Shown here in pieces: positions 22,740 to 50,312 of a stretch of DNA of 64,000 nt; the first letter of the stretch is position 1; the number at the start of each line of letters is the position of its first letter. The notes beneath the pieces were generated by a model. That model saw only the letters and a program-made list of their open reading frames with translations. It was not told the origin of the DNA and made no database searches. This stretch comes from an uncultured Planctomycetaceae bacterium (lineage in GTDB: Bacteria > Planctomycetota > Planctomycetia > Pirellulales > Pirellulaceae). The translations under genes and the position numbers were made by a program. The stretch spans positions 194 through 64,193 of the forward strand of contig CALBSZ010000696.1 of NCBI GenBank assembly GCA_937967665.1, in the 5' to 3' direction.

Positions 22740-22967
22740 GCCGGCACCTTCGCTCGAGTATGCGTCCTTCTTATTGTACCGCAAGTGCTTTGAGAATAAA
22801 ATGTTGTGTTCCGCCACGCCTAAAAGATTTTCGCCAGCGAAACAATCCGGACTCGAACGGGTTAATACAGACTGAGCTCATGCCGATCGACAGCTTGCTG
22901 GATAAGGCCGCGTGAAGCCGCTGTGTAAGTCGAAACAATTCATCCTTGCTATCCGGAGTAGAAAACT

Positions 22968-23693
22968 ATGTTGCGTCGTTACAGTCTCCTGTTGTCGTTC
23001 GCCGTCTTGGGCGTTCTGGGCGTGTCAACCATGGCGACAGCTCAACCACCCGGACGCGGTCCCGGTGGTTTTGGTGGTGGCCCCCGTGGCGGCGGGCTGT
23101 TGGACCTGCTGCGTAACGAAGAAGTTCGCACGGAATTGGGCATCCTGGACGACCAACTGGCCCCGCTGCGTGAAGCGGAACAGGAAATGCGGAATCAAGC
23201 GCGGGAAATGTTCTCGGGCCTCCGCGACCTTAACCAGGAAGAACGCGAAGCCCGGTTCGCCGAAATACGTGCCAAGTTCGAAGGCTTGCGCGAAGAGATG
23301 CAAAGCAAGATTGAATCGAGCCTGCTGCCGCACCAGGTGGACCGCTTGCGGCAGATTGCCACGCAGATGCAGATACAGCGCGGAGGGGCGAGCGGCATTT
23401 TGAACGATCGCATGAAAGAATCACTGGGCATTAGTGACGAGCAGGAAGAGGCACTGCGCAAAGCCGCGGAAGAAGCGGAAACGGAAATGCGGGCCAAAGT
23501 GGCTAAACTGCGGGAAGAAGCCCAGCAAAAGGTGCTCCGCGTGCTGACCCCCGAGCAGCGGGCCAAGTTCCAGGAAATGGTCGGCGAACCGTTCGAATTG
23601 ACTCAGCGACCCGGATTCGGCGGGGGGTTCAATCGCGGTGGCCGTGACGGAAGCCGGGGCCGCGGGAGCAACCAGCGTTCCGAGTCCGAGTAG
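22968..23693 (+). CDS. Secreted Spy/CpxP-like (LTXXQ-motif) helical protein with Gly/Arg-rich termini
   Basis: Signal peptide, a charged helical core with LTPEQRAKF and LLPHQVDRL motifs, and GGFGGG / RGG-rich ends. Confidence 0.6.
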   Translation: MLRRYSLLLSFAVLGVLGVSTMATAQPPGRGPGGFGGGPRGGGLLDLLRNEEVRTELGILDDQLAPLREAEQEMRNQAREMFSGLRDLNQEEREARFAEIRAKFEGLREEMQSKIESSLLPHQVDRLRQIATQMQIQRGGASGILNDRMKESLGISDEQEEALRKAAEEAETEMRAKVAKLREEAQQKVLRVLTPEQRAKFQEMVGEPFELTQRPGFGGGFNRGGRDGSRGRGSNQRSESE

Positions 23694-23763
23694 AATTGGC
23701 AGACGAACCAGGGTGTGGACTCGACGGGGATATCCGGGTCGCGCTCCACGCCATTTACGACTA

Positions 23764-23794
23764 GCACCCCGGCTGCCTGAAACGGCCGGGGTGC
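23764..23794 (+). terminator. GC-rich hairpin (10-bp perfect stem, 11-nt loop) between the LTXXQ gene and gspE
   Basis: GCACCCCGGC...GCCGGGGTGC paired base by base. It is followed only by a weak T run (GTGTTT) and ends 17 nt before the gspE ATG, so it could equally be a 5' leader structure. Confidence 0.35.
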
Positions 23795-23810
23795 CGGTGT
23801 TTGGGAAATC

Positions 23811-25430
23811 ATGGAAGCAGGCGATATTTTACTCCGTCGAGGACTTCTCGACAGCGATCAACTCAAACGGTCACGTACGGCAAATGGCGAAGAAGGAACG
23901 TTAGTCGACGCGGCGGTTCGCCTGGGATTCTGCCAGGAAGCGGACGCGCTGCGCGCCGTCGGAGATGAAATCGGCATCGACTTCGTGGACCTCAACGAGG
24001 CGGAGGTCGACCTGACTCTGCTGGCGGGGTTTCCTCAAAAGCTGATCTATCGCGAATCCCTCTTTCCGATCCGGCGAAATAACGGCCAGCTGGTGGTGGC
24101 CACTTGCGATCCGTTTGATCTGTACCCCTTGGACGAAGTGAGTGCGGCCACGGGGCTGTCGGTCCTGCCGGTGCTGGCCGAACGGCACGAAATCGCCAAG
24201 CTTATCAAAAAGCATCTCGGCGTCGGCGGTGAAACGATCGACGGCTTGATGGAACAGACCAAGGACGACGACCTGCAGCTGATCGGCGATATCGAAACGG
24301 ACGACTCGGAACTGTCCGAGATGGCGCAGGAGGCGTCCGTCATTCGGCTCGTGAACGAAATCCTGCTGGAAGCCATCGAGTCGCGGGCTAGCGATGTGCA
24401 CATCGAATCGCAGCCCACCGGACTCACCGTCCGCTACCGGATTGACGGGATGCTGCATCCTCAACCGGTGCCGCCCGAGATTCGCCGCTTTGAATCGGCC
24501 ATCGTCAGCCGCTTGAAAATCATGGCCCGCTTGAACATCGCCGAGAAGCGGCTGCCGCAAGACGGCCGCATGAAACTGAAAGTCGGCGGTCGCGAAATCG
24601 ATGTCCGCGTCTCGGTCATTCCCATGATTCACGGCGAGGGAATCGTGCTCCGTATCCTGGACAAGGGGAGCATGAACTTCGACTTGAAACAGCTGGGCAT
24701 GGCTCCGGACACGTACCAGATCTACCGTGAATTGATCGAAATGCCCCACGGAATTGTGCTGGTTACCGGGCCCACCGGGTCGGGTAAGACAACGACCTTG
24801 TATAGTTCCCTGCTGGAAATCAAGAGCGATTCCAACAAGATCATCACTACCGAGGATCCCGTGGAATACCAGTTGGCCGGGATCAATCAGATTCAGGTTC
24901 ATCACCAGATCGGCTTGACCTTCGCCCATTCGTTGCGAAGCATCCTGCGACACGATCCCGATATCGTTCTGGTCGGTGAAATTCGAGACTACGAAACGGC
25001 CGAAAACGCCATTCAAGCCTCCCTGACGGGACACCTGGTATTCAGTACGCTGCACACCAACGATGCGGCCGGAGCGTACACGCGTTTGGTGGACATGGGG
25101 GTGGAACCGTTCCTGGTAGCCAGCACGGTCGAAGCCGTGATGGCGCAGCGGCTGGTCCGTCGTCTGTGCAAACACTGCCGCGTTCCCTACACCCCCGGCG
25201 ATCAGGATTTACCGCAAGACTTCCCGCTTAACGAACTGACCGGCGACATCTACCGCAGTGCTGGTTGCCGTCAGTGCCGCGGTGTCGGTTATCAGGGCCG
25301 TGTCGGTATTTACGAGCTGCTGGTCACGTGCGATGAAGTGCGTCAATTGGCCCATGACAGCGAAAGTAGTTGGAAAATCAAGCAGACTGCTGTGCATAAT
25401 GGAATGCAGACCCTGCGACACGACGGCTAG
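23811..25430 (+). CDS. gspE: Type II secretion / type IV pilus assembly ATPase (GspE/PilB family); ORF ends at an in-frame TAG, conserved C-terminus continues to 25511
   Basis: N-terminal T2SSE_N-like domain, Walker A GPTGSGKTTT, Asp box, Walker B IVLVGEIRD, His box, and a CxxC...CxxC tetracysteine. After TAG (25428-30) the same frame reads RKVLEGVISVEEVLRVTKGDRIIDMK*. Confidence 0.9.
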   Translation: MEAGDILLRRGLLDSDQLKRSRTANGEEGTLVDAAVRLGFCQEADALRAVGDEIGIDFVDLNEAEVDLTLLAGFPQKLIYRESLFPIRRNNGQLVVATCDPFDLYPLDEVSAATGLSVLPVLAERHEIAKLIKKHLGVGGETIDGLMEQTKDDDLQLIGDIETDDSELSEMAQEASVIRLVNEILLEAIESRASDVHIESQPTGLTVRYRIDGMLHPQPVPPEIRRFESAIVSRLKIMARLNIAEKRLPQDGRMKLKVGGREIDVRVSVIPMIHGEGIVLRILDKGSMNFDLKQLGMAPDTYQIYRELIEMPHGIVLVTGPTGSGKTTTLYSSLLEIKSDSNKIITTEDPVEYQLAGINQIQVHHQIGLTFAHSLRSILRHDPDIVLVGEIRDYETAENAIQASLTGHLVFSTLHTNDAAGAYTRLVDMGVEPFLVASTVEAVMAQRLVRRLCKHCRVPYTPGDQDLPQDFPLNELTGDIYRSAGCRQCRGVGYQGRVGIYELLVTCDEVRQLAHDSESSWKIKQTAVHNGMQTLRHDG

Positions 25431-25632
25431 CGCAAAGTGCTGGAAGGCGTGATTTCGGTGGAAGAGGTACTGCGCGTGACCAAGGGTGACCGCATCATCG
25501 ACATGAAATAGCCGCTTTCGGGGGCCCACAAATTCACCCACGATTTCAACGCGTCTGGACCGAAAACGTGCCCGATCGAGACCATATCGAATAGAACAAC
25601 TGCCACCGCCGTACGACATCCCTCGACAACCC

Positions 25633-26832
25633 ATGCCTGATTTCGCCTACATCGCGCGCAACACAACCGGCCAGAAGGTGAGTGGTCGCGTATCGGCCGG
25701 CAGCGAGCGGGAAGTGGTGGCGATCCTGTCGGGGCAAGCTCTCTTTCCCGTCCCTGTGACCGAAGAAAAGCGTGCGCGGCGGATCGGGGGACGACGCGTC
25801 AGCGGCAATTTGATGGCTGCCACTTACGGCCAACTGGCCGCGCTGCTCCGTAGCGGCGTCGCGCTCCTCCGCAGCCTGAACGTGCTTCGCGAACAGACCT
25901 CGAACGAGCGCCTGAAGGAAGTGTTGGACGACGTCCATCATCGTGTGGAAGAGGGATCGACGCTGGCGGACGCCATGGCACGCCATCCACGCGTCTTCGC
26001 CGAGATGGCTGTCAGTATGATTCGGGCCGGCGGCGAGGGCGGGTTTCTGGAAGATGCCTTGGATCGGGTGGCTCAGTTTACCGAAGAGCAAGAAGACCTG
26101 AAGAGCCGCACGGTCGGCGCGCTGGCCTACCCGATCATCCTCATGACCATCGGCTCGACAGTCGTGTTTGGCCTGGTCGTGTTCTTTGTGCCGAAATTCG
26201 CGGCCATGTTTGACCGCTTGCGGCAGCGCGGGCAACTTCCCGTCCTGACCGATTGGTTGTTGTGGTTTAGCGATACCATGCGGGACTGGGGCCTGTACTT
26301 GCTGCTGGCGCTGGTGACCGTATTGTTTCTGCTGCGCACGCGGCTGGCATCAGAAAACGGCCGCCGTTGGCGCGATCGGGTGGAACGCCGCATCCCCAGG
26401 GCGGGTAATATCTTTACGAATCTGGCCGTCGCCCGTTTTTGCCGGGTCCTGGGGACACTGCTCAAGAATGGCGTGCCGATTTTGAAAGCCCTGGAGATCA
26501 GCCGGGAAGCCGCCGGGAACCGGATTCTGTCCGAGGCGGTGGGGCAGGCCTCGGAGAATATCACCGCCGGCCAGTCACTGGCGGAGCCCCTGGCCAGTTG
26601 CAAGTACTTCCCCAAAACGGTCGTCGAAATGATCGCGGTTGCGGAGGAGTCCAACACGCTGGATCGGGTGCTGGTCGATATTTCAGACGGACTGGAACGC
26701 CGCACCACAAGAAGACTCGACTTGATGGTCCGTTTGCTGGAACCATTGATGCTGGTGATCCTGGCAACGGTCGTGTTGCTGGTGGTCATCGCACTTTTGC
26801 TACCTGTAATTAAGATGAGCAGTTCGATTTAA
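25633..26832 (+). CDS. gspF: Type II secretion system platform protein GspF/PilC
   Basis: 399 aa. It has two repeated T2SSF halves (ATYGQLAALLRSGVALLRSL... and VARFCRVLGTLLKNGVPILKAL...) and three hydrophobic segments. Confidence 0.9.
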   Translation: MPDFAYIARNTTGQKVSGRVSAGSEREVVAILSGQALFPVPVTEEKRARRIGGRRVSGNLMAATYGQLAALLRSGVALLRSLNVLREQTSNERLKEVLDDVHHRVEEGSTLADAMARHPRVFAEMAVSMIRAGGEGGFLEDALDRVAQFTEEQEDLKSRTVGALAYPIILMTIGSTVVFGLVVFFVPKFAAMFDRLRQRGQLPVLTDWLLWFSDTMRDWGLYLLLALVTVLFLLRTRLASENGRRWRDRVERRIPRAGNIFTNLAVARFCRVLGTLLKNGVPILKALEISREAAGNRILSEAVGQASENITAGQSLAEPLASCKYFPKTVVEMIAVAEESNTLDRVLVDISDGLERRTTRRLDLMVRLLEPLMLVILATVVLLVVIALLLPVIKMSSSI

Positions 26833-26941
26833 ATCAATAGTGAAGCCGTGGCCGCACACTGGCTGTCGCGATCCGGGAACGGAGTCGAGGCGACGCTGCC
26901 GGGAAACCGCACGGCCTGACTCAAGACAAGGAGATGAGGAA

Positions 26942-27358
26942 ATGAACCGAAAAGTGTCACGCCGTCGGCGGCAAGGATTTACTCTGCTTGAAGTGCTCTT
27001 GGTCCTGGCGATCCTGGTGATCCTGGGATCGATGGTCGGCGTCTACTTCGTCGGCATGCAGGACCGCGGCTACGCGGATGCCGCGAAGACGCAAATGGGA
27101 TTGTTTGAACAGCAAATGAAATTCTTCCGCATGGACGTCGGCCGCTATCCGTCGAACCTGGAAGACCTGCGCAAGGCGCCCGCGGATCTCGCCAACCCGG
27201 AAAAGTGGAAAGGCCCGTACGCGGAGAAAGACCTTCCCCCGGATCCCTGGGGACGGCCTTATCAGCTGGAAGCGGACGGACAGTTCTATACCATCAAGTC
27301 GCTGGGCCCCGATATCAACGACGCCTCCGATGACATTACCGTGTCGAACAAGTCATGA
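26942..27358 (+). CDS. gspG: Major pseudopilin GspG
   Basis: Start at ATG 26942 with AGGAG upstream. Prepilin leader RRRRQG|FTLLEVLLVLAILVILG, then the GspG core (KTQMGLFEQQMKFFRMDVGRYPSNLEDL...WKGPY...PPDPWGRPYQ...SLGPD). Confidence 0.9.
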   Translation: MNRKVSRRRRQGFTLLEVLLVLAILVILGSMVGVYFVGMQDRGYADAAKTQMGLFEQQMKFFRMDVGRYPSNLEDLRKAPADLANPEKWKGPYAEKDLPPDPWGRPYQLEADGQFYTIKSLGPDINDASDDITVSNKS

Positions 27359-27960
27359 CCGCACGCCGCGCCTTATCGCTGTTGGAACTGCTGCTGGTGC
27401 TGGCCCTGCTGGTCGTCGTAGCGGCGCTGGTCCTGCCGGCCCTGGCCAACACGATGGAAAATCAGCGGCTCAGCAAAGCGGGAGACGTCGTGCGGGCGTC
27501 GTGGAACAACGCCCGAGTGCGGGCCATGCGCAGCGGACGCATCCACATGTTCCGCTATAGTCCCGGCGGTAATCAGTACTACGTGGAACCATGGTTTGCG
27601 GTTACGGACGAGATCGAATCGAGCGATAAGTCGTGGGACACGTCGGCGGGAAACGCAGACCTGCAAGCGGCGTTGGCGGTGCGGGCGAATCCGGAGGAAT
27701 TGCCGGAAGGAGTCACGTTCGTGCAGGCGCAAACATTTTTCGATTCCCGGGACCAGGCCGCCACGGAAGACATCGCCGGAGCCGGACTGCCGCTGCCGGC
27801 AGCTCCCATTCTGTTTTATCCCGACGGCACCACGTCGACCACACGCCTGCTGTTGATGAACGAACAGGAATCCTACGTCGTCGTGCAGTTGCGCGGCCTG
27901 ACGGGAATCGCCAAAGTCAGTGAACTGCTCACTCCCGCGGAACTCATCGCATGGCGCTAA
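27355..27960 (+). CDS. Minor pseudopilin (GspH-like) with Ala at the -1 cleavage position
   Basis: The N-terminus MTARRA|LSLLELLLVLALLVVVAAL is a prepilin-like methylation segment with Glu+5. ATGA overlap with the gspG stop. Gene order supports the call. Confidence 0.65.
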   Translation: MTARRALSLLELLLVLALLVVVAALVLPALANTMENQRLSKAGDVVRASWNNARVRAMRSGRIHMFRYSPGGNQYYVEPWFAVTDEIESSDKSWDTSAGNADLQAALAVRANPEELPEGVTFVQAQTFFDSRDQAATEDIAGAGLPLPAAPILFYPDGTTSTTRLLLMNEQESYVVVQLRGLTGIAKVSELLTPAELIAWR

Positions 27961-28442
27961 AACACGAGCACGCTCCGACATTTCGCAGCGGCCGTCAACG
28001 CGCGGGCCTGTCGATCCTCGAGGTGATGTTGGCCCTGGCCATCCTGGGACTCGCTGTGACTGCCATTGGGCAGCTGATTCATATCGGGTCGATGAGTTCC
28101 GTCGCGGCCAGTCACGAGACCACGGCGCAGATGATCTGCGAGTCGAAGCTGGCGGAGATTACGTCGGGTATCCAGCCGACAACACCGCTCGCCAACGTCC
28201 CCTTCGAACTTGACGACGACTGGAACTACAGCATCCAACGCGAAGAGATTAACGACTTGGGCCTGGTGGCCATTCAAGTAACGGTGGAACAGCGAGCCGA
28301 TCGCTACGACCGCCCGGTAACGTTCTCACTGATTCGCTGGGTCAATGAAAACGATCTGCCGACCATGGAGGAGGTGCCGGCGGAGGACGGCGGCAGCGAG
28401 GACGCGACTCGTGGAAACACAACGGGCGAGGCCGCGTCATGA
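27951..28442 (+). CDS. Minor pseudopilin (GspI-like)
   Basis: RQRAG|LSILEVMLALAILGLAV prepilin-type N-terminus, small size (163 aa), and a 10-nt overlap with the previous gene. Confidence 0.65.
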   Translation: MALKHEHAPTFRSGRQRAGLSILEVMLALAILGLAVTAIGQLIHIGSMSSVAASHETTAQMICESKLAEITSGIQPTTPLANVPFELDDDWNYSIQREEINDLGLVAIQVTVEQRADRYDRPVTFSLIRWVNENDLPTMEEVPAEDGGSEDATRGNTTGEAAS

Positions 28443-29455
28443 CACGAATCCCCCGGAAACCAAACGCCGTCCGCCGGATGCCTCGCAACGGTTTTTCGCT
28501 GCTGGAAGTGTTACTTGCCCTGGGCCTGTCCGTCGTGGTCTTGGGCCTGATCGCCGCGGCCGTGGACAACACGCTGCGAATGTTGGACGAACGCCGCACG
28601 AACGTCGAGAAGGCGCAGTTGGCCCGCGCGGTCTTGAGGCAGATTGCCAGCGACCTGCGTAGCTCCGTCCAGTATGAACCAGTGGATCTGGAAGGCATTG
28701 AAAGCATGTCGGCGACCGAGGCGCTGACCGGCGTCGATCCGGCAACGCTCCAATCGGCCGGCGCGGCGGCGGAGATCGATTTCGGGTCCGTGGCCGAGGA
28801 AGCGGATGAGCAGTTGGCCGGGATCGCCAGTACGCTTTCTCCCGCGACGATCCCGGGACTTTACGGCAACCAGTTTGAATTGCAGGTCGACGTCTCGCGA
28901 CTGCCCAGGCTGGACGAATACGAAGTGTTCTTGCGAATCGATCAACCACTGGCCATCGCGCAGATTCCCAGCGACGTCAAGACGGTGGCCTACTATCTGC
29001 AGGCGACTCCCGATGACGTGCTCGATCCGCTCGCCGCGGACGTCGCGGAAGACACTTCCGCGACGGCGCCGCGCGGGCTGGTGCGGCGCGAATTGGATCG
29101 GGCCGTCACGACCTGGGCGATGAACAATGGCAATCTGGAATCCCTCCAGAATTCGGCGGACCTGCTGGCGCCCGAAGTCACCGCGATCGAATTCCGCTAC
29201 TTCGATGGCCAACAGTGGCTGCTGCAATGGGATTCGGAAGTCGAGGGCGGGCTGCCGATTGCCGTGGAGATTGCGCTCTCGATCGCTCCCGATGATCCGC
29301 TCAACGCTCCGATTCCGACGACCTTGCTGGGCACTTCCATCGCGGGCGTGTTTGGGGACAACGTCTTTCGCATGGTCGTACAGTTGCCGGTGGGAAAACG
29401 GCAGCCTGACGAGTCCGCGAACGGTTCCACCGGTTTGGAGGAGCTGGGGCTATGA
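28439..29455 (+). CDS. Minor pseudopilin (GspJ-like)
   Basis: PRNG|FSLLEVLLALGLSVVVLGL prepilin-type N-terminus, 338 aa, ATGA overlap. Confidence 0.65.
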   Translation: MTRIPRKPNAVRRMPRNGFSLLEVLLALGLSVVVLGLIAAAVDNTLRMLDERRTNVEKAQLARAVLRQIASDLRSSVQYEPVDLEGIESMSATEALTGVDPATLQSAGAAAEIDFGSVAEEADEQLAGIASTLSPATIPGLYGNQFELQVDVSRLPRLDEYEVFLRIDQPLAIAQIPSDVKTVAYYLQATPDDVLDPLAADVAEDTSATAPRGLVRRELDRAVTTWAMNNGNLESLQNSADLLAPEVTAIEFRYFDGQQWLLQWDSEVEGGLPIAVEIALSIAPDDPLNAPIPTTLLGTSIAGVFGDNVFRMVVQLPVGKRQPDESANGSTGLEELGL

Positions 29456-30990
29456 CACGTTGTCGACGCGGAGTAGTTCTGATCATCGTGCTGGTGGTGG
29501 TGGTGGTCCTGTCGCTGGCGGCCTACACCTTCAGCGATTTGATGCTGACGCACAACGAGGCCAGTCAGTTGAACGGCCGCAGCCTGCAGGCTCGCGAAGT
29601 CGTGGCTTCGGGAGCGGAATGGGTGCGGACCTTTCTGATGCTGGACGACGAAACGATTATCGAAGCCGGCGGCATCTACAACAATCCACAGCAGTTTCAA
29701 GCGATTCCCGTTGTTCAGGATATTGAAGAGGATTTTCGCGCGAACTTCACGCTGGTGGCGCCCGCACTGGACGACGAAGGAAACCTGGCCGGCGTGCGCT
29801 ACGGTTTGCAGGACGAATCAACCCGCTTGAACGTGAACGCGCTGCTGGCGCTCGAGGACCAGCAAACGGGGGCGGGACGGCAATTGCTGCTGGCCCTGCC
29901 GGGAATGACCGAAGACGTCGCCGATGCCATCCTGGATTGGCTGGACGAAGACGACGACCCGCGTGACTACGGCGCCGAAGCCGAATACTACAGTACGATG
30001 CAGCCACCATACGGTCCCAAGAACGGACCGCTCGACACCGTCGAAGAACTGCTACTCGTCCGCGGCGTGACGCCTCGCCTGCTGTTCGGCATGGACGTCA
30101 ATCGCAACGGCATGATCGACAACTATGAATTGCAGTCGACCGAGTTGGCGGAAGACGCCACGACGACCACGGAGTTCACGGAATTCGGCTGGGCCAGTCT
30201 CCTGACGCTGCACGGCGCCGAATGGAACGCAAATTCGCTGGGAGAACCGCGGATCGATCTGAATGACGAAGACTTGAAACAACTGTACGCCGACCTGACC
30301 GCCGTCTTCGACGACGAATGGGCGAAGTTTATTGTCGCCTACCGGCAAGGGGGCGCTTACACCGGAAGCGATCCCGTCGATTCATCGGCCGGCCGCGAGC
30401 TCAATTTCGACTTGCCGGCTCAGTCCAACATCACGCAGGTGCTGGAATTGATCGGCGCGAAGACGCAAGTCACGTTTGCCGGCGCCAGCAGCCCGACGGT
30501 CCTGGCATCGCCGTTTGACACCGGCATTGTGGCAATGAACGTCTACTTGCCGATCCTGTTGAACCAGGTGTCCGTGAATCCCGCGCCGACCATTCCAGGC
30601 CGGATCAATATCAATCAAGCGCCTCGCGTGATGCTGGAAGGAATCCCGGGCATGACGACGGAACTGCTGGATACCATCTTGAAATCTCGCCCGGTGGAAC
30701 CGGTCGTGGAAAACCTCAACTTTGGGTACGAGACCTGGTTGCTGACGGAGGGGCTGGTAACGCTGGAACAGATGCGCGCGCTGTCGCCGTTCGTCTGTGC
30801 TGGTGGCGACGTGTATCGGGCTCAGATCGTCGGCTATTACGAAGGTGGAATGGCCTCGTCCCGCGCGGAAATCATTTTCGCTGCTACCGGGACCGCGCCT
30901 CGCGTATTATCCTGGAGAGATGTCAGCCATCTGGGGCGCGGCTACGCGATTGAGACATTGGGCGTCCAGATGGTGGGCGAGGAAATGTAG
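29452..30990 (+). CDS. GspK-like minor pseudopilin
   Basis: RRG|VVLIIVLVVVVVLSLAAY has no Glu+5, as in GspK. The LLLALPGMTEDVADAILDWLDEDDD and EQMRALSPFV regions resemble the GspK helix-hairpin-helix-like domains. 512 aa, ATGA overlap. Confidence 0.7.
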   Translation: MTRCRRGVVLIIVLVVVVVLSLAAYTFSDLMLTHNEASQLNGRSLQAREVVASGAEWVRTFLMLDDETIIEAGGIYNNPQQFQAIPVVQDIEEDFRANFTLVAPALDDEGNLAGVRYGLQDESTRLNVNALLALEDQQTGAGRQLLLALPGMTEDVADAILDWLDEDDDPRDYGAEAEYYSTMQPPYGPKNGPLDTVEELLLVRGVTPRLLFGMDVNRNGMIDNYELQSTELAEDATTTTEFTEFGWASLLTLHGAEWNANSLGEPRIDLNDEDLKQLYADLTAVFDDEWAKFIVAYRQGGAYTGSDPVDSSAGRELNFDLPAQSNITQVLELIGAKTQVTFAGASSPTVLASPFDTGIVAMNVYLPILLNQVSVNPAPTIPGRININQAPRVMLEGIPGMTTELLDTILKSRPVEPVVENLNFGYETWLLTEGLVTLEQMRALSPFVCAGGDVYRAQIVGYYEGGMASSRAEIIFAATGTAPRVLSWRDVSHLGRGYAIETLGVQMVGEEM

Positions 30991-30991
30991 T

Positions 30992-32449
30992 ATGGCACGA
31001 ATCCTGGCAATCGAATGGGACGCCCGCGAGGCGCGTGCCGTGGTGGCCCGCACACGGGCCGACGACGTGACCGTGGAAGACGCGTTCGTCATCGACGTGA
31101 CTCCCCGCGCCGGCCAGGAGACGTTGAGCGACGAGGAAGTGGGCGCGCGCATCTTGTCGGCCTTGTCCGCGCGCAATATCAGCAAGCTGGAGACGCACGT
31201 CTCCGTCGGCCGCGCGAATATCGAATTGCGGTTCCTCAACGTCCCGCCGGCGCCCGAGGAAGAATTGCCCGGGATGGTCCGGTTGCAGGCCGGACGCCAC
31301 TTTTCCAATCTAGGTGCCGACTCGACCCTTGATTTCGTCCCTGTCGGGCAGGCCGAAGATGGCAGCCTGAATCTGCTCGCCGCCGCCACCTCGGCCGAAT
31401 TCCTGCGCGATGTCCAACAGACGTGCTCGGCCGCGCAGCTGACTCCGCAGAGTATCGTGCTGCGGCCGTTCGCGACGGCGTCGTTGTGGCGGCGCAGCAA
31501 CGACGTAACACCATGCACGTTGATGATCGACGTGCTGGGAAATGAAGCCGATCTGACCGTGTTGGTGGACGGCAATGTGGTCGTCACACGCACCGTGCGA
31601 TTGCCAGACGACCCCGCGGCGATTGCAGCAGCGCTGATTGGCGAAGTCAAACGGACCTCGGCCGCCGCTCAGAATCAGACGTCCGGACGCAAGGTCGACG
31701 GGATCGTGCTGCTGGGGGACGTCAGTGAATTTGGCGACGCCCAGGAAACCCTTTCACAAGCGCTCGAAATCCCGGTTGCGTTCTTCAATCCGTTTACCAA
31801 TCTGAAATTCGCCGAAGGTTGGCGAGCGCCCGGTCGCAGCGGACGGTTTGCCCCGCTGCTCGGCATGATTCTGGACGAATCCGCCGGCGAAAGGCATCTG
31901 GTCGATTTCCTGAATCCACGACGCAAGCCCGAAGCCGCCAGTTACAATCGGCGGCAGGCCATGGTCGGTGGCGGCGTCGCGGCGCTCGCCCTGCTGGTGC
32001 TCGTGATCTTGTGGCTGCAATTCCGCGCGCTGGATCAACGCATCGAGCAACTCACACAGGAATCCGCCAGCTGGGACCCGCTGGTCAAGAAGGCACAGCA
32101 GCTGACCAGGGACGTCCACGAAATCGAGCAGTTCCAGGATGCCAACGTACGCTGGCTGGACGAACTGCGTCTGATGTCCGAAGTGGCGCCTCCCGCCGAA
32201 GACATGATTGTCCGGCAATGGACGTCGGCGGCCAGGAAGGAGGGAGGCGGTGTGATCGCGATCGAAGGACAAGCCGAGGAGTTTTCGACCATCGAACAGC
32301 TCGAACGCGCTCTGCGGGATCCTCGTCATCAGGTGTTTGGTCGCGGTGGACGCGAAGACGAGAAAGCCGACGCTTATCGCTGGGTGTTCAATGAGGAGAT
32401 TGTTGTCAGTTCGTCGTCGTCGGCGGACGGGGCGGAGGAAGCGCCATGA
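30992..32449 (+). CDS. GspL/PilM-PilN-like assembly-platform protein (cytoplasmic actin-like domain + TM + periplasmic domain)
   Basis: I use the start MARILAIEWDAREARAVV, 1 nt after the gspK stop. PilM-like N-terminal half, a single TM (VGGGVAALALLVLVILWL), then a coiled-coil and a ferredoxin-like tail. Confidence 0.65.
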   Translation: MARILAIEWDAREARAVVARTRADDVTVEDAFVIDVTPRAGQETLSDEEVGARILSALSARNISKLETHVSVGRANIELRFLNVPPAPEEELPGMVRLQAGRHFSNLGADSTLDFVPVGQAEDGSLNLLAAATSAEFLRDVQQTCSAAQLTPQSIVLRPFATASLWRRSNDVTPCTLMIDVLGNEADLTVLVDGNVVVTRTVRLPDDPAAIAAALIGEVKRTSAAAQNQTSGRKVDGIVLLGDVSEFGDAQETLSQALEIPVAFFNPFTNLKFAEGWRAPGRSGRFAPLLGMILDESAGERHLVDFLNPRRKPEAASYNRRQAMVGGGVAALALLVLVILWLQFRALDQRIEQLTQESASWDPLVKKAQQLTRDVHEIEQFQDANVRWLDELRLMSEVAPPAEDMIVRQWTSAARKEGGGVIAIEGQAEEFSTIEQLERALRDPRHQVFGRGGREDEKADAYRWVFNEEIVVSSSSSADGAEEAP

Positions 32450-33645
32450 TCCACCGTGAACGTATCCTCTTGTCCCTGGTAGTGGGACCCGGCATCGCCG
32501 CGATCGCCTTTGTGGGCGTGGCCAAAGTTCGCAAAGGGCTGTCTGATCGGCGAGACCGCGTGGCATTGCTGCAAAAAGAGATCGCCGACAAGGAGTTCGA
32601 GGTCGCGTTGGGCGAACGCAAAGCACTGGAACTGATTGAGTTGGAAGCGCGGTCACTGCCCCCCAGCCGCGAGCAAGCAATGTCGGTGTACCAGGCCTGG
32701 CTGCTGGACCTGGTCAAGAATGCCGGTTTGCAGGATGTGGACGTCAAACTGCAATCGAACCGCTCGGTCCGTGATGTCTACACGATGTTCACGTTTGCCG
32801 TCACGGGAGATGGTGATCTGCCCAGGCTGACCGAATTCCTGCACCGTTTTTACGAAGCCGATTTCCTGCATCGCATCGGGCGCCTGAATCTGAAACCGAT
32901 TCGCGATCGCCGCGAACTGTCGCTGTCCATGTCAGTCGACGCGCTGGCCTTGCCGGGATCCCCGCACCTCAAGACCCTGCCGACCGACCTGCAGCCCCCC
33001 CGGGATCTGCTGACACTCGAGGAATACCGGACCGCAATCCTCGGCCGGAATCTTTTCGGGCCGCCCAACAACAAGCCGCGCTTGACCATCTCCGGATCAC
33101 AGCGTGCCTACGTCGGACGCTCGCTGACGGTTTCCCCTCAGGCCAGCGACCCGGATAAACTGGATTCGCTGCGCTACAGTGTCGCTGAAAAAGAACTTCC
33201 CAGCGGCATGCGATTCGACGCCCAGACCGGCAGCCTGCAGTGGACACCGCGGGAAACCGGCGAGTACTCCGTCACGTTGATCGTTAGCGACGATGGGCTG
33301 CCGAGCAAGTCCGATAGCCAACTTGTCAAGATCAGCGTCAGCGAACCGCCCCCGCCTCCCACGCCGCGCCCGACCCCGCCGGCGAAACCAAGTTTTGACC
33401 CGGCACAGTACACGTTCCTGACTTCGGTCGTCGAGATCAACGGGGAGCCGCAGATCTGGTTGATCGACCGTACCACGGGGACACGATACGAATTGTCTGT
33501 GGGCGATTCCTTCGACATTGGCACCTGGAAAGGTACGGTGGTCCGTATCGGGACGAATAGTGCCGAGGTCGAATCCTCGGGCCACGTCTACCTGATCTCG
33601 ATCGGCGAACCGCTCACCAGCGGCGAAGAACTCGACAGCGTCTAA
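32446..33645 (+). CDS. GspM/PilO-like protein fused to a cadherin-like Ig domain, a Pro-rich linker and a PilP/GspC-HR-like C-terminal beta domain
   Basis: N-terminal TM plus coiled-coil plus a PilO-like block (AWLLDLVKNAGLQDVDVKL...FTFAVTGDGDLPRLTEFLHRFY). Ig-like SLTVSPQASDPD...LQWTPRETGEYSVTLIVSDDG. Linker PPPPPTPRPTPPAKP. C-terminus YTFLTSVVEINGEPQIWLIDRTTGTRYELSVGDSF..GTVVRIGTNSAEVESSGHVYLISIG. Confidence 0.6.
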   Translation: MIHRERILLSLVVGPGIAAIAFVGVAKVRKGLSDRRDRVALLQKEIADKEFEVALGERKALELIELEARSLPPSREQAMSVYQAWLLDLVKNAGLQDVDVKLQSNRSVRDVYTMFTFAVTGDGDLPRLTEFLHRFYEADFLHRIGRLNLKPIRDRRELSLSMSVDALALPGSPHLKTLPTDLQPPRDLLTLEEYRTAILGRNLFGPPNNKPRLTISGSQRAYVGRSLTVSPQASDPDKLDSLRYSVAEKELPSGMRFDAQTGSLQWTPRETGEYSVTLIVSDDGLPSKSDSQLVKISVSEPPPPPTPRPTPPAKPSFDPAQYTFLTSVVEINGEPQIWLIDRTTGTRYELSVGDSFDIGTWKGTVVRIGTNSAEVESSGHVYLISIGEPLTSGEELDSV

Positions 33646-38562: not shown

Positions 38563-41500
38563 ATGCCACGAAGCCTGTCCAAGCAATTACGTCATCGCCA
38601 GAACGTGCGGCGCCTGCGATCCCTCCGACAAAGCCTGCAAATGGAATCCCTGGAAGCCCGTATGCTGTTGACCGCCTATGCTGATGCCGTCCTGGCGGAC
38701 AACCCGTTGGCCTTCTTTCAGTTTGACGAAGGCTCGGGAACGACGGCTAACGACTCGACGGCCAATGCAACGCATGGCAACATCGAAAACGCCACCTATT
38801 CACTCAATGGCGGAGGTCGCGGCGGTGACGCCGGTAACTACGCGCTGAGCTTCGACGGCAACGGAGACTCGGTTCGCGTGGTGGACGATGCTACCTCCGT
38901 GAACACGAATGCGTTCAATTCGATCACGGCCAACAACAAGGTCACGGTCGAATTCTGGCAATACGGGATCGGCCAGGCTCGCGACGACACAATCTTCGGC
39001 GGCTTCGACAGCAGCGGCAATCGTCAGGTCATGTCCCACCTGCCGTGGGGCAATAGCAATGTGTATTTCGATACGGGTGGTGGCGCGTCGACACCGAGCC
39101 AACGCATCAACACGGCCATGCCAGCGACGACCTTCAACGGGCGGTGGAATCATTGGGTCTTCATCAAGGACGGCAACAACAAGACGGTGTACAACAACGG
39201 TGTCGCCATACCGGCGCTGACGCAGTCCAATGCCACAGCAAACATCGGAGATATTCATCGCTTCTTTGTTGGAAGCGAAGCGAATTCGAGCGGCGGTATT
39301 ACCAACAGCTACCTTGGTTTGATCGATGATTTCGCCGTTTACGATAAGGCTTTATCCGCGGCGCAAGTGGCGGATCATTATCAGGCGAGTTTTGACGATG
39401 CCTTCGCCACGGACGAAGACACGGCGATCAGTGTCGATTCGTCTGTCGGCCTGCTGACCAACGATATGCCGCTGTATCGCTTCGAAAATGTCGCGTTGTC
39501 CAGCGCCGGCGGTGTCGCCTCACAATCCACCGATCGAGTCGGCAGCGGTTGCAATGTCGCGTCGTGCGCTATCGATGGCGATACCAACGGTAGTTTTGGC
39601 GGTAACTCCGTCACGCACACGCTTAACGAAACTCAACCTTGGTGGCAGGTGCAACTGCCGGCGATGCGTGACATCAATTCCATTAACTTGTTCAACCGCA
39701 CGGATTGCTGCAGCAACCGCCTGGACAACTTCCGCGTCTCCATCTGGCAGGGAGACCCGAATAGTGGCGGTGTCGAACAGTTCGGCCGCGATTTCTCATT
39801 CCCCGGCGGGCCGGGAACTTCTCTGTCGCTGGACGTCCCCAACTTTGTCAAAGGCAACTACGTTCGCGTGCAGTTGGCTAACGACGGGGAGAGCGAACCG
39901 CTGTCTTTGGCGGAAGTGCAGGTCTTTGCCGCGGCGCATGAAGTCGCTTCTGCCCAGGGCATGTCGTTGGGCGGCAGTACGACGGCCCGCGGCGACGGCT
40001 CGGTGACCGTCACAACCGACAAGGGTGGTTCGCTGACAATCACTGATGACGGCGGCTTTGACTATGATCCTTCCGTATCGTCAACGTTAAACACTCTTCC
40101 CGCCGGCGCCACGGATACCGACACATTCACCTATACCTACACCGATGGCACGTCCAGCCGTACGGCGACCGTCACGCTGACGATAACCGGTGTGAATGAC
40201 GCGCCTAATGCTGTGGACGACCCCAATGGCGGACTGCCCAATGCGGCATACACGACCACTGAAGACGCCGTGCTCAACGTTCCCGACGGCCCCGACGACG
40301 TGCTGGCCAACGACACGGACCCCGACACAGGCGATTCCATCAACCTTGTCACCTTCGACAGTACCAGCGTCAACGGCGCGGCGGTTGTCGTCAATCCTGA
40401 TGGCAGTTTCTCTTACGACCCGTCCGGTTCTGCGACGATCCAGACGCTTGACCAAGGTCAACCGCTGACGGATACCTTCACCTACACCATCACGGACTCG
40501 CTGGTACCGGCCAATGGTCGTTTCATCCGGGTCCGGAACAACGGCCCCGTAGATCGTTTGCTTCACATCGGTGAAATCGAAGCGTTTGCCCCAGGCGTGA
40601 CTCCAGCCGCCAACTTCGACGGGACCAACGATCTGGCGTTGAGTTCCAAAGGGGCTACGGTCGAATCGACCGTAGGGGGTGGCGGACATGGAAACCCGAA
40701 CGCCACCATCGACGGCAGTGAACAAACGGGTGGCTCGACCTGGACCAAACAGGCCGTCGGAACGGAAATTGTCATTGACTTGGGCGGATCGTTTGACATC
40801 GAACGCGTCCGCGTGCACCAGCGCAATGACAGTTGTTGCCAGGACCGCCTGATGGACTTCACCGTTTCCTTACTCGCCGACGACGGTTCCGGGAATCCAG
40901 GTGCTGTCGTACAGAGCGCCAGCTATCCCGGCCAGCCACCCACCAACTCGTTCGGTGAAGTCGCGCTGGATCCGGTGCCCTCGGGCGCCTTGCAAGTCGC
41001 CACGGTCAGCATTGCTGTCAACGGAGTCAATGATACCCCGAATCCGGCGGACGACGTGAACGACATCACCGAGTTGTCCGACGATACGGTCACCGTGAAC
41101 ACCGTCAGCGGTGACCTGTTCAGCAACGATACCGACGTAGACGATCCGGCAAGCTCCTTCAGCCTGGTACAAGTCAATGCGGACACCAGCGGAAACACAG
41201 TGGGGCTTTACGGCACGTTAACCTGGTCGCCCAACACCAACGGCGACGGAACCTACACGTATGCCCTGGACGATAGCAACGCGGCTGTGCAAGCGCTCGC
41301 CCCGGGGCAGACTCTCACGGACACGTTCACCTATACATTAAGCGACAATCATAGTGACGGCAGCGGCAGCAACAATCCACTTACCAACACCGCGAACCTG
41401 GTGATTACCATCAAGGGCGCTAACGATTCGCCGAATGCCGAGGACGATGCGGCCGATGTCATTGAAGACACCATGGTGACGACCGCAGGAAACGTCATTT

Positions 41501-48861: not shown

Positions 48862-50312
48862 ATACGCATCAAGTTAAGAAAAACTGCTCTTCGCGAAAAG
48901 GCGGAAGCTCCGCCAGAATTGAGGGTTGTATCAAAAAACAATCCTGGGAGAAGGAGCTTCCGCATGAGTATGATAGCAAAGGTGGCTGCCGCGTTGCAGA
49001 GCGTTTTCGGTGCGTGTGCAGAGATTGCTGCTGAGGAATCAAAAGTTATTCAGAGACGGCGAAAATTTACTCCGCAATCCTTAGCACAGGTGTTCGTGTT
49101 GGCGTTGCTTCAGAATCCGAGAGCCAACAGTGAGGATATGGCGAGCATGGCGGCCGCGAGTGGCATCGAGGTCTCTCATCAAGCGGTCGAGCAACGCTAT
49201 TCGCTGCGACTCGTGGAGTTCTTCCGGGAGTTGTTCCAGCAGATGACGAAGCAAGTCGTGTCCTCGGATACCGCTTTGGCTAAGCTCTTGGAACGTTTTA
49301 CTGAGGTCATTGTGATCGACAGCAGCGTGATCACCTTGCCAGACAGCCAACAGGAAAACTTTCGCGGCTGTGGCGGAAGTTACGAAGGTGGCAAGTCGGC
49401 TTTGAAACTTCAAACCGAACTGGAGCTTCGTGGGGGAGAACTCCGTTGTGTTCAGATCGAGCAAGGGCGCTCTCCCGATGGTGCTAGCGATCGTCAACAC
49501 GTCGCTTTTGCGCCGGGTTCGTTGCGCCTCGCCGACTTGGGATATTTCAACCTTCCTGTGCTGAAAAGGATCGCTGCCTCGAAAGCCTTCTTCCTCACCC
49601 GGTTGCCGCATCACACGAAAATCTATTTCGCAGCCAAAAAACACGACGTGGTGGCTTGGCTTAAATCGCAGGGCCGAATGCTGGTCGATACGTGGATTGA
49701 AATTGGCTCCGAAGCTCGCGTTCAATGTCGCTTAATCGCGTGGCGAGTTCCCGAGGAAGTCGCGAACCGCCGCCGTCAGAAGCTGATCGAAAAGACGCGT
49801 AGCAAGACAGGACGGGCTCCCACGGCCGAGTCGCTGGCCTCATGTGATTGGGAACTCTTGGTCACCAATCTTCCCGAAGATCAGCTGGGCGTCAAAGAAG
49901 CCGTTGTGCTGTATCGCTCCCGTTGGCAAATCGAATTGCTGTTTAAACGTTGGAAGTCACTCTGCTTGATTGATGAGTTAGACGGCCGCAACGATGTCGT
50001 GACGATGGTGAGGTTCTGGGCTCGCCTGTGCGGGGTGCTCATACAGCATTGGCTAACGGTCGGTGCGGCTTGGTCGGATGCGCTTCACTTAAGTTTCACG
50101 AAAGTGGCCAAGCTAGTGCGAAAGTTTGCGAAGGACCTTGCTATCGCCCTCTCCTCAGCTGGAGACGTGGAGCTGATTATTGAGCGATTCTGCACGATGG
50201 CTCGCACCGGATGTCGACGGAACAAACGCAGGAAACACCCCGGAACCATTCAGTTATTGAGAAACCCGGAATTGCTCGACTACACTTTAATCGGCTTAAC
50301 TTGATGCGTATG
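48861..50312 (+). mobile_element. IS4-family insertion sequence (~1.45 kb) with 18-bp perfect terminal inverted repeats
   Basis: IRL CATACGCATCAAGTTAAG (48861-48878) and IRR CTTAACTTGATGCGTATG (50295-50312) are exact reverse complements. It carries a single DDE transposase ORF whose stop lies inside IRR. Confidence 0.9.
48964..50304 (+). CDS. IS4-family DDE transposase
   Basis: Start MSMIAKV with AGGAG upstream. VIVIDSS (D1) and LRLADLGYF (D2). YRSRWQIELLFKRWK fits the Y-x2-R-x3-E-x6-K signature exactly. Confidence 0.9.
   Translation: MSMIAKVAAALQSVFGACAEIAAEESKVIQRRRKFTPQSLAQVFVLALLQNPRANSEDMASMAAASGIEVSHQAVEQRYSLRLVEFFRELFQQMTKQVVSSDTALAKLLERFTEVIVIDSSVITLPDSQQENFRGCGGSYEGGKSALKLQTELELRGGELRCVQIEQGRSPDGASDRQHVAFAPGSLRLADLGYFNLPVLKRIAASKAFFLTRLPHHTKIYFAAKKHDVVAWLKSQGRMLVDTWIEIGSEARVQCRLIAWRVPEEVANRRRQKLIEKTRSKTGRAPTAESLASCDWELLVTNLPEDQLGVKEAVVLYRSRWQIELLFKRWKSLCLIDELDGRNDVVTMVRFWARLCGVLIQHWLTVGAAWSDALHLSFTKVAKLVRKFAKDLAIALSSAGDVELIIERFCTMARTGCRRNKRRKHPGTIQLLRNPELLDYTLIGLT

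What the first reader, a model, noticed from the sequence alone, without database searches (positions are those of the whole stretch)
25428..25511. In-frame amber codon removes the conserved C-terminal helix of the secretion ATPase GspE
The ORF stops at TAG 25428-25430 after ...MQTLRHDG. The same frame then continues RKVLEGVISVEEVLRVTKGDRIIDMK to TAG 25509-25511.

GspE/PilB-family proteins end ...(I/L)R.DG(L/W).KV..G(I/V)(T/S)S.EEV.RVT... (for example, Vibrio EpsE as I recall it: IRDDGLDKVRQGITSLEEVMRVTKE). So the 26 codons after the stop are the genuine conserved C-terminus.

TAG is one substitution from TGG (Trp) or TTG (Leu). The possibilities are:
- a sequencing error;
- a very recent nonsense mutation, since all eight downstream genes are intact (seven of them, gspG to gspM, tightly coupled);
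- a truncation or readthrough that the cell tolerates.
Basis: partly seen in the sequence, partly recalled or inferred. Interest (0 to 1): 0.7.

Follow-up and report, generated by a model that had tools for sequence, protein, structure and literature searches.

The report
Amber stop truncating a secretion ATPase
One G-to-A change turns a conserved tryptophan codon into a stop near the end of a secretion-motor gene (gspE) in an uncultured planctomycete; it is an ordinary, very recent nonsense variant or a sequencing error, not a new mechanism.

Summary
The gspE-like ORF (23811-25430, 539 aa) stops at TAG 25428-30. The next 26 in-frame codons are the family's genuine, highly conserved C-terminus.

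- **Ancestral codon.** Two other assemblies of the same population (99.2-99.4% identical DNA) read TGG here. 113 of 120 homologues have Trp, and none of 80 species-representative genomes has a stop here. The change is therefore TGG to TAG, and recent.
- **No recoding.** TAG ends about 14 other genes in the window. There is no tRNA, no Rfam match and no unusual RNA structure nearby.
- **What is lost.** Half of the penultimate helix and all of the last helix of the ATPase domain, including invariant K542 and E552. All catalytic and zinc motifs remain.
- **Real or error?** The TAG sits on a distinct haplotype with linked SNPs. Those differences are transition-rich, unlike the transversion-rich singletons of the low-coverage contigs. 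This favours a real strain allele (about 0.55) over a consensus error (about 0.33). Only the raw reads can settle it.

Gene loss and functional consequence are inferred, not shown. Interest is low.

The parts
23811..25430 (+). gspE-like ATPase ORF as encoded (539 aa), ending at the premature amber codon
   Evidence: ORF list and translation. Pfam MshEN plus T2SSE. The best NCBIfam match is TIGR02533 GspE, at 599.6 bits against a cutoff of 630.25. Walker A, Walker B, the His box and the four zinc cysteines all lie upstream of the stop.
25428..25430 (+). Amber codon TAG replacing Trp540 (TGG); A at 25429 is the derived base
   Evidence: L001 and L002 both read G at 25429. The sister protein P0121 has W. 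113 of 120 homologues have W and 7 have F. The change creates a CTAG/GCTAGC palindrome, and CTAG is 2.8-fold under-represented in the window.
25431..25511 (+). Orphaned 26-codon tail (RKVLEGVISVEEVLRVTKGDRIIDMK plus the natural TAG stop). It encodes the rest of helix 535-544 and helix 550-556
   Evidence: It carries two linked haplotype SNPs. At 25446 the window has the ancestral Gly546 and the sister contigs have Ser. At 25453 the window has Ile548, where 120 of 120 homologues have Thr or Ser.
25633..26832 (+). gspF (inner-membrane platform protein), intact, 399 aa
   Evidence: Pfam T2SSF E = 1.4e-60. TIGR02120 E = 2.7e-104. The window haplotype carries K251E, L252R and M256R in a conserved motif.
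26840..27358 (+). gspG major pseudopilin (the real start is probably ATG 26942, giving 138 aa)
   Evidence: Pfam N_methyl plus T2SSG. TIGR01710 scores 91.4 bits, above its cutoff of 88.85. Gene calls of 138 aa in L003 and L084.
27355..27960 (+). gspH-like minor pseudopilin
   Evidence: Weak XpsH/GspH matches. It overlaps the stop of gspG by 4 nt.
27951..28442 (+). gspI-like minor pseudopilin
   Evidence: N_methyl. TIGR01707 gspI E = 1e-6, below the cutoff.
28439..29455 (+). gspJ-like minor pseudopilin
   Evidence: Pfam T2SSJ at 28.5 bits (cutoff 28) plus N_methyl.
29452..30990 (+). gspK minor pseudopilin
   Evidence: Pfam T2SSK_1st E = 1.9e-21. NF037980 GspK E = 1.4e-27.
30992..32449 (+). PilM/GspL-like actin-fold assembly protein (485 aa)
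   Evidence: PilM_2 and TIGR01175 weak matches. Gene call of 485 aa in L003.
32446..33645 (+). Last gene of the cluster, an Ig-domain (He_PIG) protein; its role in the machine is unknown
   Evidence: Pfam He_PIG E = 7e-13. No NCBIfam match.

Best explanation
**What it is.** A real, very young nonsense allele. In the strain represented by this contig, a G-to-A transition at 25429 changed the Trp540 codon TGG of a GspE-type secretion ATPase to amber TAG.

**What it does to the protein.** TAG is an ordinary terminator in this organism, so translation ends 27 residues early. The 539-aa product keeps these parts:
- the N-terminal MshEN domain;
- the N2 domain;
- Walker A and Walker B;
- the His box;
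- the tetracysteine zinc site.

It loses half of helix 535-544 and all of helix 550-556 of the C-terminal helical bundle.

**Likely consequence (inferred, not shown).** The lost segment holds invariant residues. The truncated ATPase is therefore probably unstable or inactive. That would weaken or switch off the type II secretion-like pseudopilus machine encoded by the eight intact downstream genes. The rest of gspE shows no decay, so the event is recent. A sister strain in the same environment keeps the intact gene.
For: **Shown**
- The ancestral state is TGG. Two independent sibling assemblies, L001 and L002, are 99.4% and 99.2% identical to the window and read TGG. Trp is present in 113 of 120 homologues. 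None of 80 species-representative loci has a stop here.
- TAG is a normal terminator. My gene calls give 15 TAG, 20 TGA and 10 TAA stops, and no other gene has an unexplained coding-like in-frame extension.
- The window is a distinct haplotype. L001 and L002 share 11 differences from it, including 25446 and 25453 within 25 bp of the TAG. The G at 27459 is seen in four other assemblies.
- The window-unique differences are 8 transitions to 3 transversions. Singletons private to the low-coverage contigs are 3 to 23 (Fisher p = 5e-4). The TAG-making G-to-A change therefore falls in the class that looks like real polymorphism.
- At 25446 the window keeps the ancestral Gly and the other haplotype is derived. 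The three-SNP cluster therefore cannot come from one bad read in the window.
- The two window-derived changes, G-to-A and C-to-T on the same strand, cannot both come from a single deaminated strand.
- The 65.7-kb contig carries long uninterrupted ORFs of 1836, 1070 and more than 3029 aa, so it is not a generally error-ridden assembly.
- gspE is otherwise normal, with 1 deviation in 248 columns that are at least 97% conserved. The median for homologues is 1.

**Structure**
- The AlphaFold model has pLDDT above 90 through residue 550 and shows helices 535-544 and 550-556.
- The model matches solved PilB/GspE structures with target-normalised TM-scores of 0.8-0.85.
Against: - No reads are available, and the TAG allele is seen in only one assembly. 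The contig's coverage is unknown.
- A nonsense change in a strongly constrained gene is more expected from an error than from a surviving mutation.
- About 1 kb downstream the same haplotype has a tight cluster of changes towards G (T>G, A>G, T>G, T>G at 26378-26399). They put Arg or Glu at conserved Leu, Met and Lys positions of GspF. This resembles the single-bad-read error clusters seen in the low-coverage contigs, and hints that the window consensus may be locally unreliable.
- Loss of function of the truncated protein is inferred from conservation only. I found no published C-terminal truncation of a GspE or PilB ATPase.
Confidence: 0.55

Rival explanations
1. Sequencing or assembly error. 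The organism's gene reads TGG, and the A at 25429 is a consensus mistake in a metagenome-assembled contig.
For: - The TAG is unique to one assembly, and the two other assemblies that cover the site read TGG.
- Sibling contigs from the same sample series are demonstrably error-rich. L001 has its own nonsense codon in gspG and a 15-nt deletion in gspF. L002 has a 5-nt deletion.
- The window itself has a suspicious cluster of changes towards G that hits conserved GspF residues.
- gspE shows no other sign of decay.
- Broken gspE genes occur in other MAGs: two of about 40 planctomycete species representatives are frameshifted.
Against: - The change is a transition, and it is linked within 25 bp to two other haplotype-specific transitions. 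One of those is derived in the other haplotype.
- The error-like singletons are 88% transversions.
- A 65-kb contig with giant intact ORFs argues for adequate coverage.
Confidence: 0.33
2. The stop is real but harmless. Either UAG is read through often enough (suppressor tRNA, weak TAG-C context) to give full-length GspE, or the 539-aa protein still works.
For: - All catalytic and zinc motifs lie upstream of the stop.
- The tail and all eight downstream genes are still intact.
- The base after the stop is C. From my own knowledge, that is a weak termination context in E. coli.
Against: - TAG terminates about 14 other genes in the window, including three with TAG-C.
- There is no tRNA gene in the window and no Rfam hit.
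- The RNA downstream of the stop has no unusual structure (z = -0.17).
- The stop is not conserved, since the sister strain has TGG.
- The lost residues are invariant across the family.
- Intactness of the tail is equally expected if the mutation is simply young.
Confidence: 0.07
3. Genetic-code recoding: UAG encodes pyrrolysine or is reassigned as a sense codon in this organism.
For: None beyond the presence of an in-frame TAG.
Against: - TAG is used as a terminator by a third of the genes in the window.
- No other gene has a coding-like in-frame TAG.
- The position is Trp/TGG in the sister strain and in relatives.
- No pyl genes or tRNA genes are in the window.
Confidence: 0.01

Closest known systems
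GspE/EpsE type II secretion ATPase (Vibrio cholerae EpsE, PDB 1P9R/4KSR) and type IVa pilus assembly ATPase PilB (Geobacter, PDB 5TSG/5ZFR)
   Same: - Same domain order: MshEN/N1, N2, then the RecA-like C-terminal domain with Walker A, Walker B, His box, tetracysteine zinc site and C-terminal helices.
- Sequence E-values of 1e-123 to 1e-145.
- Predicted fold with target-normalised TM-scores of 0.8-0.85.
- Operon with gspF, gspG and the minor pseudopilins, including GspK.
   Different: - The encoded ORF lacks the last 27 residues.
- Even the full-length sister protein scores just under the GspE equivalog cutoff (626 against 630.25). It carries a PilB-like full N-terminal domain.
- No secretin gene was found in the window.
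Spontaneous loss-of-function mutations in type II secretion or pilus genes. One example is the phage-insensitive Ralstonia solanacearum mutants with T2SS defects (PMC9765573)
   Same: Point mutations, frameshifts and premature stops that disable a secretion machine arise readily and can be selected. In that study phage phiAP1 needed an active GspE-driven T2SS.
   Different: - Those were laboratory-selected mutants with measured phenotypes.
- Here there is only a sequence from an uncultured strain, with no phenotype, no known phage and no proof that the allele is real.
Disrupted genes in metagenome-assembled genomes (assembly or sequencing artefacts)
   Same: - It is a single-base disruption of a conserved gene, seen in one assembly only.
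- Sibling contigs and other MAGs show comparable lesions.
   Different: - This lesion is a transition linked to other haplotype SNPs.
- The clear artefacts nearby are transversions, indels or frameshifts.

Membership tests
GspE/PilB secretion ATPase (Pfam PF00437 T2SSE; NCBIfam TIGR02533) | RecA-like core with Walker A (GPTGSGKT), Walker B/Asp box and His box | tested here: met
   GPTGSGKTTT at 320-329, DPDIVLVGEIRD and LTGHLVFSTLHTND are all present. They align to PilB and GspE structures. T2SSE E = 3.5e-136.
GspE/PilB secretion ATPase (Pfam PF00437 T2SSE; NCBIfam TIGR02533) | Tetracysteine zinc-binding CM subdomain (CXXC...CXXC), which separates assembly ATPases from PilT | tested here: met
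   C453-x2-C456 and C486-x2-C489 are invariant in 51 aligned homologues. The motif definition is taken from PMC5061722.
GspE/PilB secretion ATPase (Pfam PF00437 T2SSE; NCBIfam TIGR02533) | N-terminal GSPII/MshEN domain | tested here: met
   PF05157, E = 4.3e-18, residues 55-138.
GspE/PilB secretion ATPase (Pfam PF00437 T2SSE; NCBIfam TIGR02533) | Complete C-terminal helical segment, to the end of the family profile | tested here: not met
   The ORF as encoded stops at TIGR02533 profile position 468 of 486. The feature is met only if the TAG is read as Trp.
GspE/PilB secretion ATPase (Pfam PF00437 T2SSE; NCBIfam TIGR02533) | Score above the curated GspE equivalog cutoff (630.25 bits) | tested here: not met
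   599.6 bits truncated and 626 bits for the full-length sister protein. GspE is still the best family, ahead of PilB at 575.7 bits against a cutoff of 675.65. It is therefore a GspE-like member of the GspE/PilB clade, not a certified equivalog.
Type II secretion system gene cluster | Adjacent gspF, gspG and minor pseudopilins including GspK | tested here: met
   T2SSF, T2SSG/TIGR01710 (above its cutoff), T2SSJ and T2SSK_1st/NF037980.
Type II secretion system gene cluster | Outer-membrane secretin GspD | tested here: not met
   No Secretin-family hit among about 50 ORFs of the window scanned with Pfam. It may lie elsewhere in the genome.
Programmed stop-codon recoding (pyrrolysine, suppressor-dependent or reassigned UAG) | The in-frame stop is conserved in relatives | tested here: not met
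   TGG in L001 and L002. W or F in 120 of 120 homologues. No stop in 80 species loci.
Programmed stop-codon recoding (pyrrolysine, suppressor-dependent or reassigned UAG) | UAG is avoided as a terminator, or is in frame in many genes | tested here: not met
   15 of 45 called ORFs end in TAG. No other unexplained coding-like read-through extension.
Programmed stop-codon recoding (pyrrolysine, suppressor-dependent or reassigned UAG) | Recoding machinery (tRNA-CUA, pyl genes) or a stimulatory RNA element | tested here: inconclusive
   None in the window: no tRNA, no Rfam hit, fold z = -0.17. The rest of the genome is not available.
Decaying pseudogene | Several disabling lesions or relaxed constraint along the gene | tested here: inconclusive
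   - gspE has a single lesion and a normal count of deviations at conserved columns.
- However, T548I in the orphaned tail is unique among 120 homologues.
- GspF carries three radical replacements at conserved sites.
- There are too few events to decide, and they could be errors.

The most novel reading that the evidence does not exclude
The amber allele is real and established in a free-living Pirellulaceae strain that coexists with a wild-type strain. Together with the radical GspF replacements on the same haplotype, it would mark a natural on/off polymorphism of the type II secretion-like machine, for example phage escape or 'cheating' on secreted enzymes. Alternatively, it would show that a GspE lacking its invariant last helices can still work.
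Probability: 0.15. Interest if true: 0.35.

Novelty: new member of a known kind. Interest (0 to 1): 0.15.

Why it matters
It matters little beyond annotation. The gene should be flagged as a gspE carrying an internal stop (pseudogene or possible sequencing error), not as a 539-aa protein, and the 26-codon tail should not be treated as intergenic DNA.

If the reads confirm the allele, it would be a small natural experiment. It would bear on whether the invariant C-terminal helices of GspE/PilB motors are dispensable. It would also be an example of strain-level loss of a secretion machine in an uncultured planctomycete population.

Tried and rejected
- **Exact look-ups of the window's own proteins, to recover the contig record and its coverage.** Searches returned nothing. 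Searches returned only sibling contigs. The 65,658-bp contig is counted in the index but was never returned.
- **Exact 33-mer scan of GTDB species genomes, allowing either allele.** No match. The nearest species representative is only 75% identical in protein, so no close reference genome exists.
- **Second homologue search with the C-terminal 136 residues, to find other near-identical fragments carrying TAG or TGG.** Nothing above 70% identity was returned, so it was uninformative.
- **Literature search for C-terminal truncations of GspE/PilB.** Nothing directly relevant was found.
- **Recoding, pyrrolysine or suppressor ideas.** Rejected on stop-codon usage, lack of conservation of the stop, absence of tRNA genes and Rfam matches, and an unremarkable RNA fold.
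- **A compensating gspE paralogue in the window.** None was found by tblastn.
- **Polarity on gspF.** No terminator-like site lies between gspE and gspF, and the extra untranslated stretch is only 81 nt. A strong polar effect is therefore not expected (inference).
- **Apparent gene-poor region at 54-64 kb.** It turned out to be one giant ORF that runs off the window.

Full report
**1. The observation**

- The + strand ORF 23811-25430 (539 aa) ends ...MQTLRHDG at TAG 25428-30. The same frame runs on for 26 codons (RKVLEGVISVEEVLRVTKGDRIIDMK) to TAG 25509-11.
- With Trp at the stop, Pfam T2SSE aligns residues 172-555 to the last position of its profile (E = 3.5e-136). An MshEN domain sits at the N-terminus.
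- Solved PilB and GspE chains align through residue 558-561.
- The GspE model TIGR02533 scores 599.6 bits for the truncated protein, which reaches profile position 468 of 486. It scores 626 bits for the full-length sister protein.

**2. What the codon was**

- The homologue search returned the window's own product (P0001, 539 aa, from a 65,658-bp contig held by NCBI and ENA). All other relatives are at most 80% identical, and every one of them runs through the C-terminus (538-605 aa).
- The 90% cluster of P0001 holds one more protein, P0121 (566 aa), which reads ...RHDGWRKVLESVTSVEEV....
- Its contig L001 (ERZ869940, coverage 3.9x) is 99.4% identical to window 22766-30907 and has G at 25429.
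- An exact-pattern scan found a second contig, L002 (ERZ869936, coverage 2.7x, 99.2% identical), also with TGG.
- Among 120 homologues, position 540 is W in 113 and F in 7.
- None of the 80 GTDB species-representative loci has a stop there, and in 78 of them the gene reads through position 540 in a single alignment. L034 and L043 are frameshifted elsewhere in the gene. L040 ends at its contig edge before this position.
- The event is therefore a TGG to TAG transition, and it is recent.

**3. Not recoding**

- TAG ends 15 of the 45 ORFs I called, including this one.
- Among 37 genes checked, no other has a coding-like in-frame extension past its stop. The few long extensions are adjacent genes or shadows of genes on the opposite strand.
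- The window has no tRNA gene and no Rfam match.
- The RNA around and after the stop folds no better than shuffled sequence (z = -0.17), and there is no terminator-like site.

**4. What is lost**

- An AlphaFold model of the full-length sister protein has mean pLDDT 77, above 90 for residues 430-550. It shows four terminal helices: 508-515, 520-529, 535-544 and 550-556.
- The model matches PilB/GspE structures with target-normalised TM-scores of 0.8-0.85.
- The stop falls in the middle of helix 535-544 and removes helix 550-556.
- The lost residues include invariant K542 and E552, and near-invariant W540, G546, K558 and D560.
- Walker A, Walker B, the His box and the CXXC...CXXC zinc site all lie upstream.
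- In Geobacter PilB the chain is ordered to its last residue and belongs to the C-terminal domain (PMC5424180).
- That the truncated protein is defective is an inference from conservation. I found no experimental C-terminal truncation.

**5. Real allele or error?**

Evidence that favours a real allele:
- Four other assemblies of this population overlap the operon: L001, L002/L084, L003 and L085.
- Where at least two of them cover a site (5,803 bp), 11 sites differ from the window in all of them with the same base. These include 25429, 25446, 25453, 25754, a cluster at 26316-26378, and 27459. The window is therefore a separate haplotype.
- These shared differences are 8 transitions to 3 transversions. 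Differences private to a single low-coverage contig are 3 to 23 (Fisher p = 5e-4). The private ones behave like errors, and the shared ones like true polymorphism. The TAG-making change is a shared transition.
- Within the 25-bp cluster, outgroups polarise each site. Gly546 (119 of 120) is ancestral and is kept by the window. W540* and T548I are derived in the window. A single bad read in the window cannot explain this pattern.
- G-to-A plus C-to-T on one strand cannot both come from deamination of one strand.
- The window also holds uninterrupted ORFs of 1836, 1070 and more than 3029 aa. This argues for a sound assembly.

Evidence that favours an error:
- The allele is seen in only one assembly.
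- Nonsense changes are enriched among errors relative to surviving mutations.
- The window haplotype has four changes towards G within 22 bp (26378-26399). They turn GspF K251, L252 and M256 into E, R and R. Across 53 orthologues, position 252 is always L, I, T or M, and position 256 is V, L, I or M in 50.
- That cluster looks like the single-read error clusters in L001 and L002.

My estimate is real allele about 0.55, error about 0.33, and the remainder for tolerated or read-through variants.

**6. State of the locus**

- gspE is otherwise unremarkable. It has 1 deviation in 248 columns that are at least 97% conserved, and the median for homologues is 1.
- The downstream genes are all open and overlap or abut. 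They are gspF, gspG, H-, I- and J-like pseudopilins, gspK, a PilM/GspL-like protein and a He_PIG Ig-domain protein.
- No gspE paralogue and no secretin gene lies in the window.
- The surrounding genes are typical of Pirellulaceae, including DUF1501, PSD1/PSCyt, DUF1559 and sulfatases. This agrees with the names carried by the homologues.

**7. Comparison and verdict**

- The protein is a GspE-like member of the GspE/PilB assembly-ATPase clade, and the lesion is a plain nonsense substitution.
- The closest functional precedent is the ease with which T2SS-null mutants arise and are selected, for example by phage in Ralstonia (PMC9765573).
- Nothing here requires a new mechanism.
- Interest is low. 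The practical outcome is an annotation correction and a read-level check.

Noticed in passing
window 26316-26399 (gspF codons 228-256): The window haplotype differs from L001/L002 at about 10 sites in 84 bp. Four changes towards G within 22 bp give K251E, L252R and M256R in the conserved 'D..KL+lP(h)xG' motif. Across 53 orthologues position 252 is always L, I, T or M. Position 256 is V, L, I or M in 50 of them. This is either an error cluster in the window or real radical changes on the same haplotype as the amber codon.
   Followed up: partly
window 24983-24992 (gspE codons 391-394): There are five differences from L001 in 10 bp. Two are synonymous, and CTG to TAC replaces the conserved Leu394 (L in 108 of 120 homologues) with Tyr. 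A multi-nucleotide change like this looks like a short gene-conversion or recombination tract. Only L001 covers the site.
   Followed up: partly
window 22766-33168 compared with L001, L002, L003 and L085: Differences between the window and the other haplotype fall in a few tight clusters, with none in 27460-30907. Singletons in the 2.7-3.9x contigs are 88% transversions (A/C and G/T) and often sit near contig ends. L001 has its own nonsense codon in gspG (27107 G>T) and a 15-nt deletion in gspF. L002 has a 5-nt deletion at 28079-83.
   Followed up: yes
window 25426-25431, and window-wide: The mutation creates a GCTAGC/CTAG palindrome. CTAG is strongly under-represented in the window, at 24 observed against 66.8 +/- 7.7 expected.
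   Followed up: partly
window 54911 to beyond 64000 (+): A giant ORF of more than 3029 aa runs off the window end, so the ORF listing does not show it. It has PATR repeats and Big_9 and PKD domains, and is presumably a cell-surface protein. It explains the apparent lack of long ORFs at 54-64 kb.
   Followed up: partly
window 38563-44073 (+): An 1836-aa protein with Laminin_G_3, F5/8 type C, cadherin-like, PKD and RTX calcium-binding repeats. It lies about 5 kb downstream of the secretion cluster and is a plausible secreted or surface protein.
   Followed up: no
window 48919-50304 (+): A DDE_Tnp_1 transposase gene (461 aa), presumably an insertion sequence. Local GC is slightly lower (0.57).
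   Followed up: no
L034 and L043 (species-representative Planctomycetia MAGs): In both, the orthologous gspE is split into two reading frames (a frameshift). Several C-terminal gspE fragments of 180-230 aa were also called on contigs of 0.4-2.8 Mb. Broken gspE calls are therefore not rare in MAGs.
   Followed up: partly
P0121 / L001 and L002, at window position 25446: The intact sister allele carries Ser at Gly546, a position that is Gly in 119 of 120 homologues. Both haplotypes therefore have an unusual residue in the last helices.
   Followed up: no
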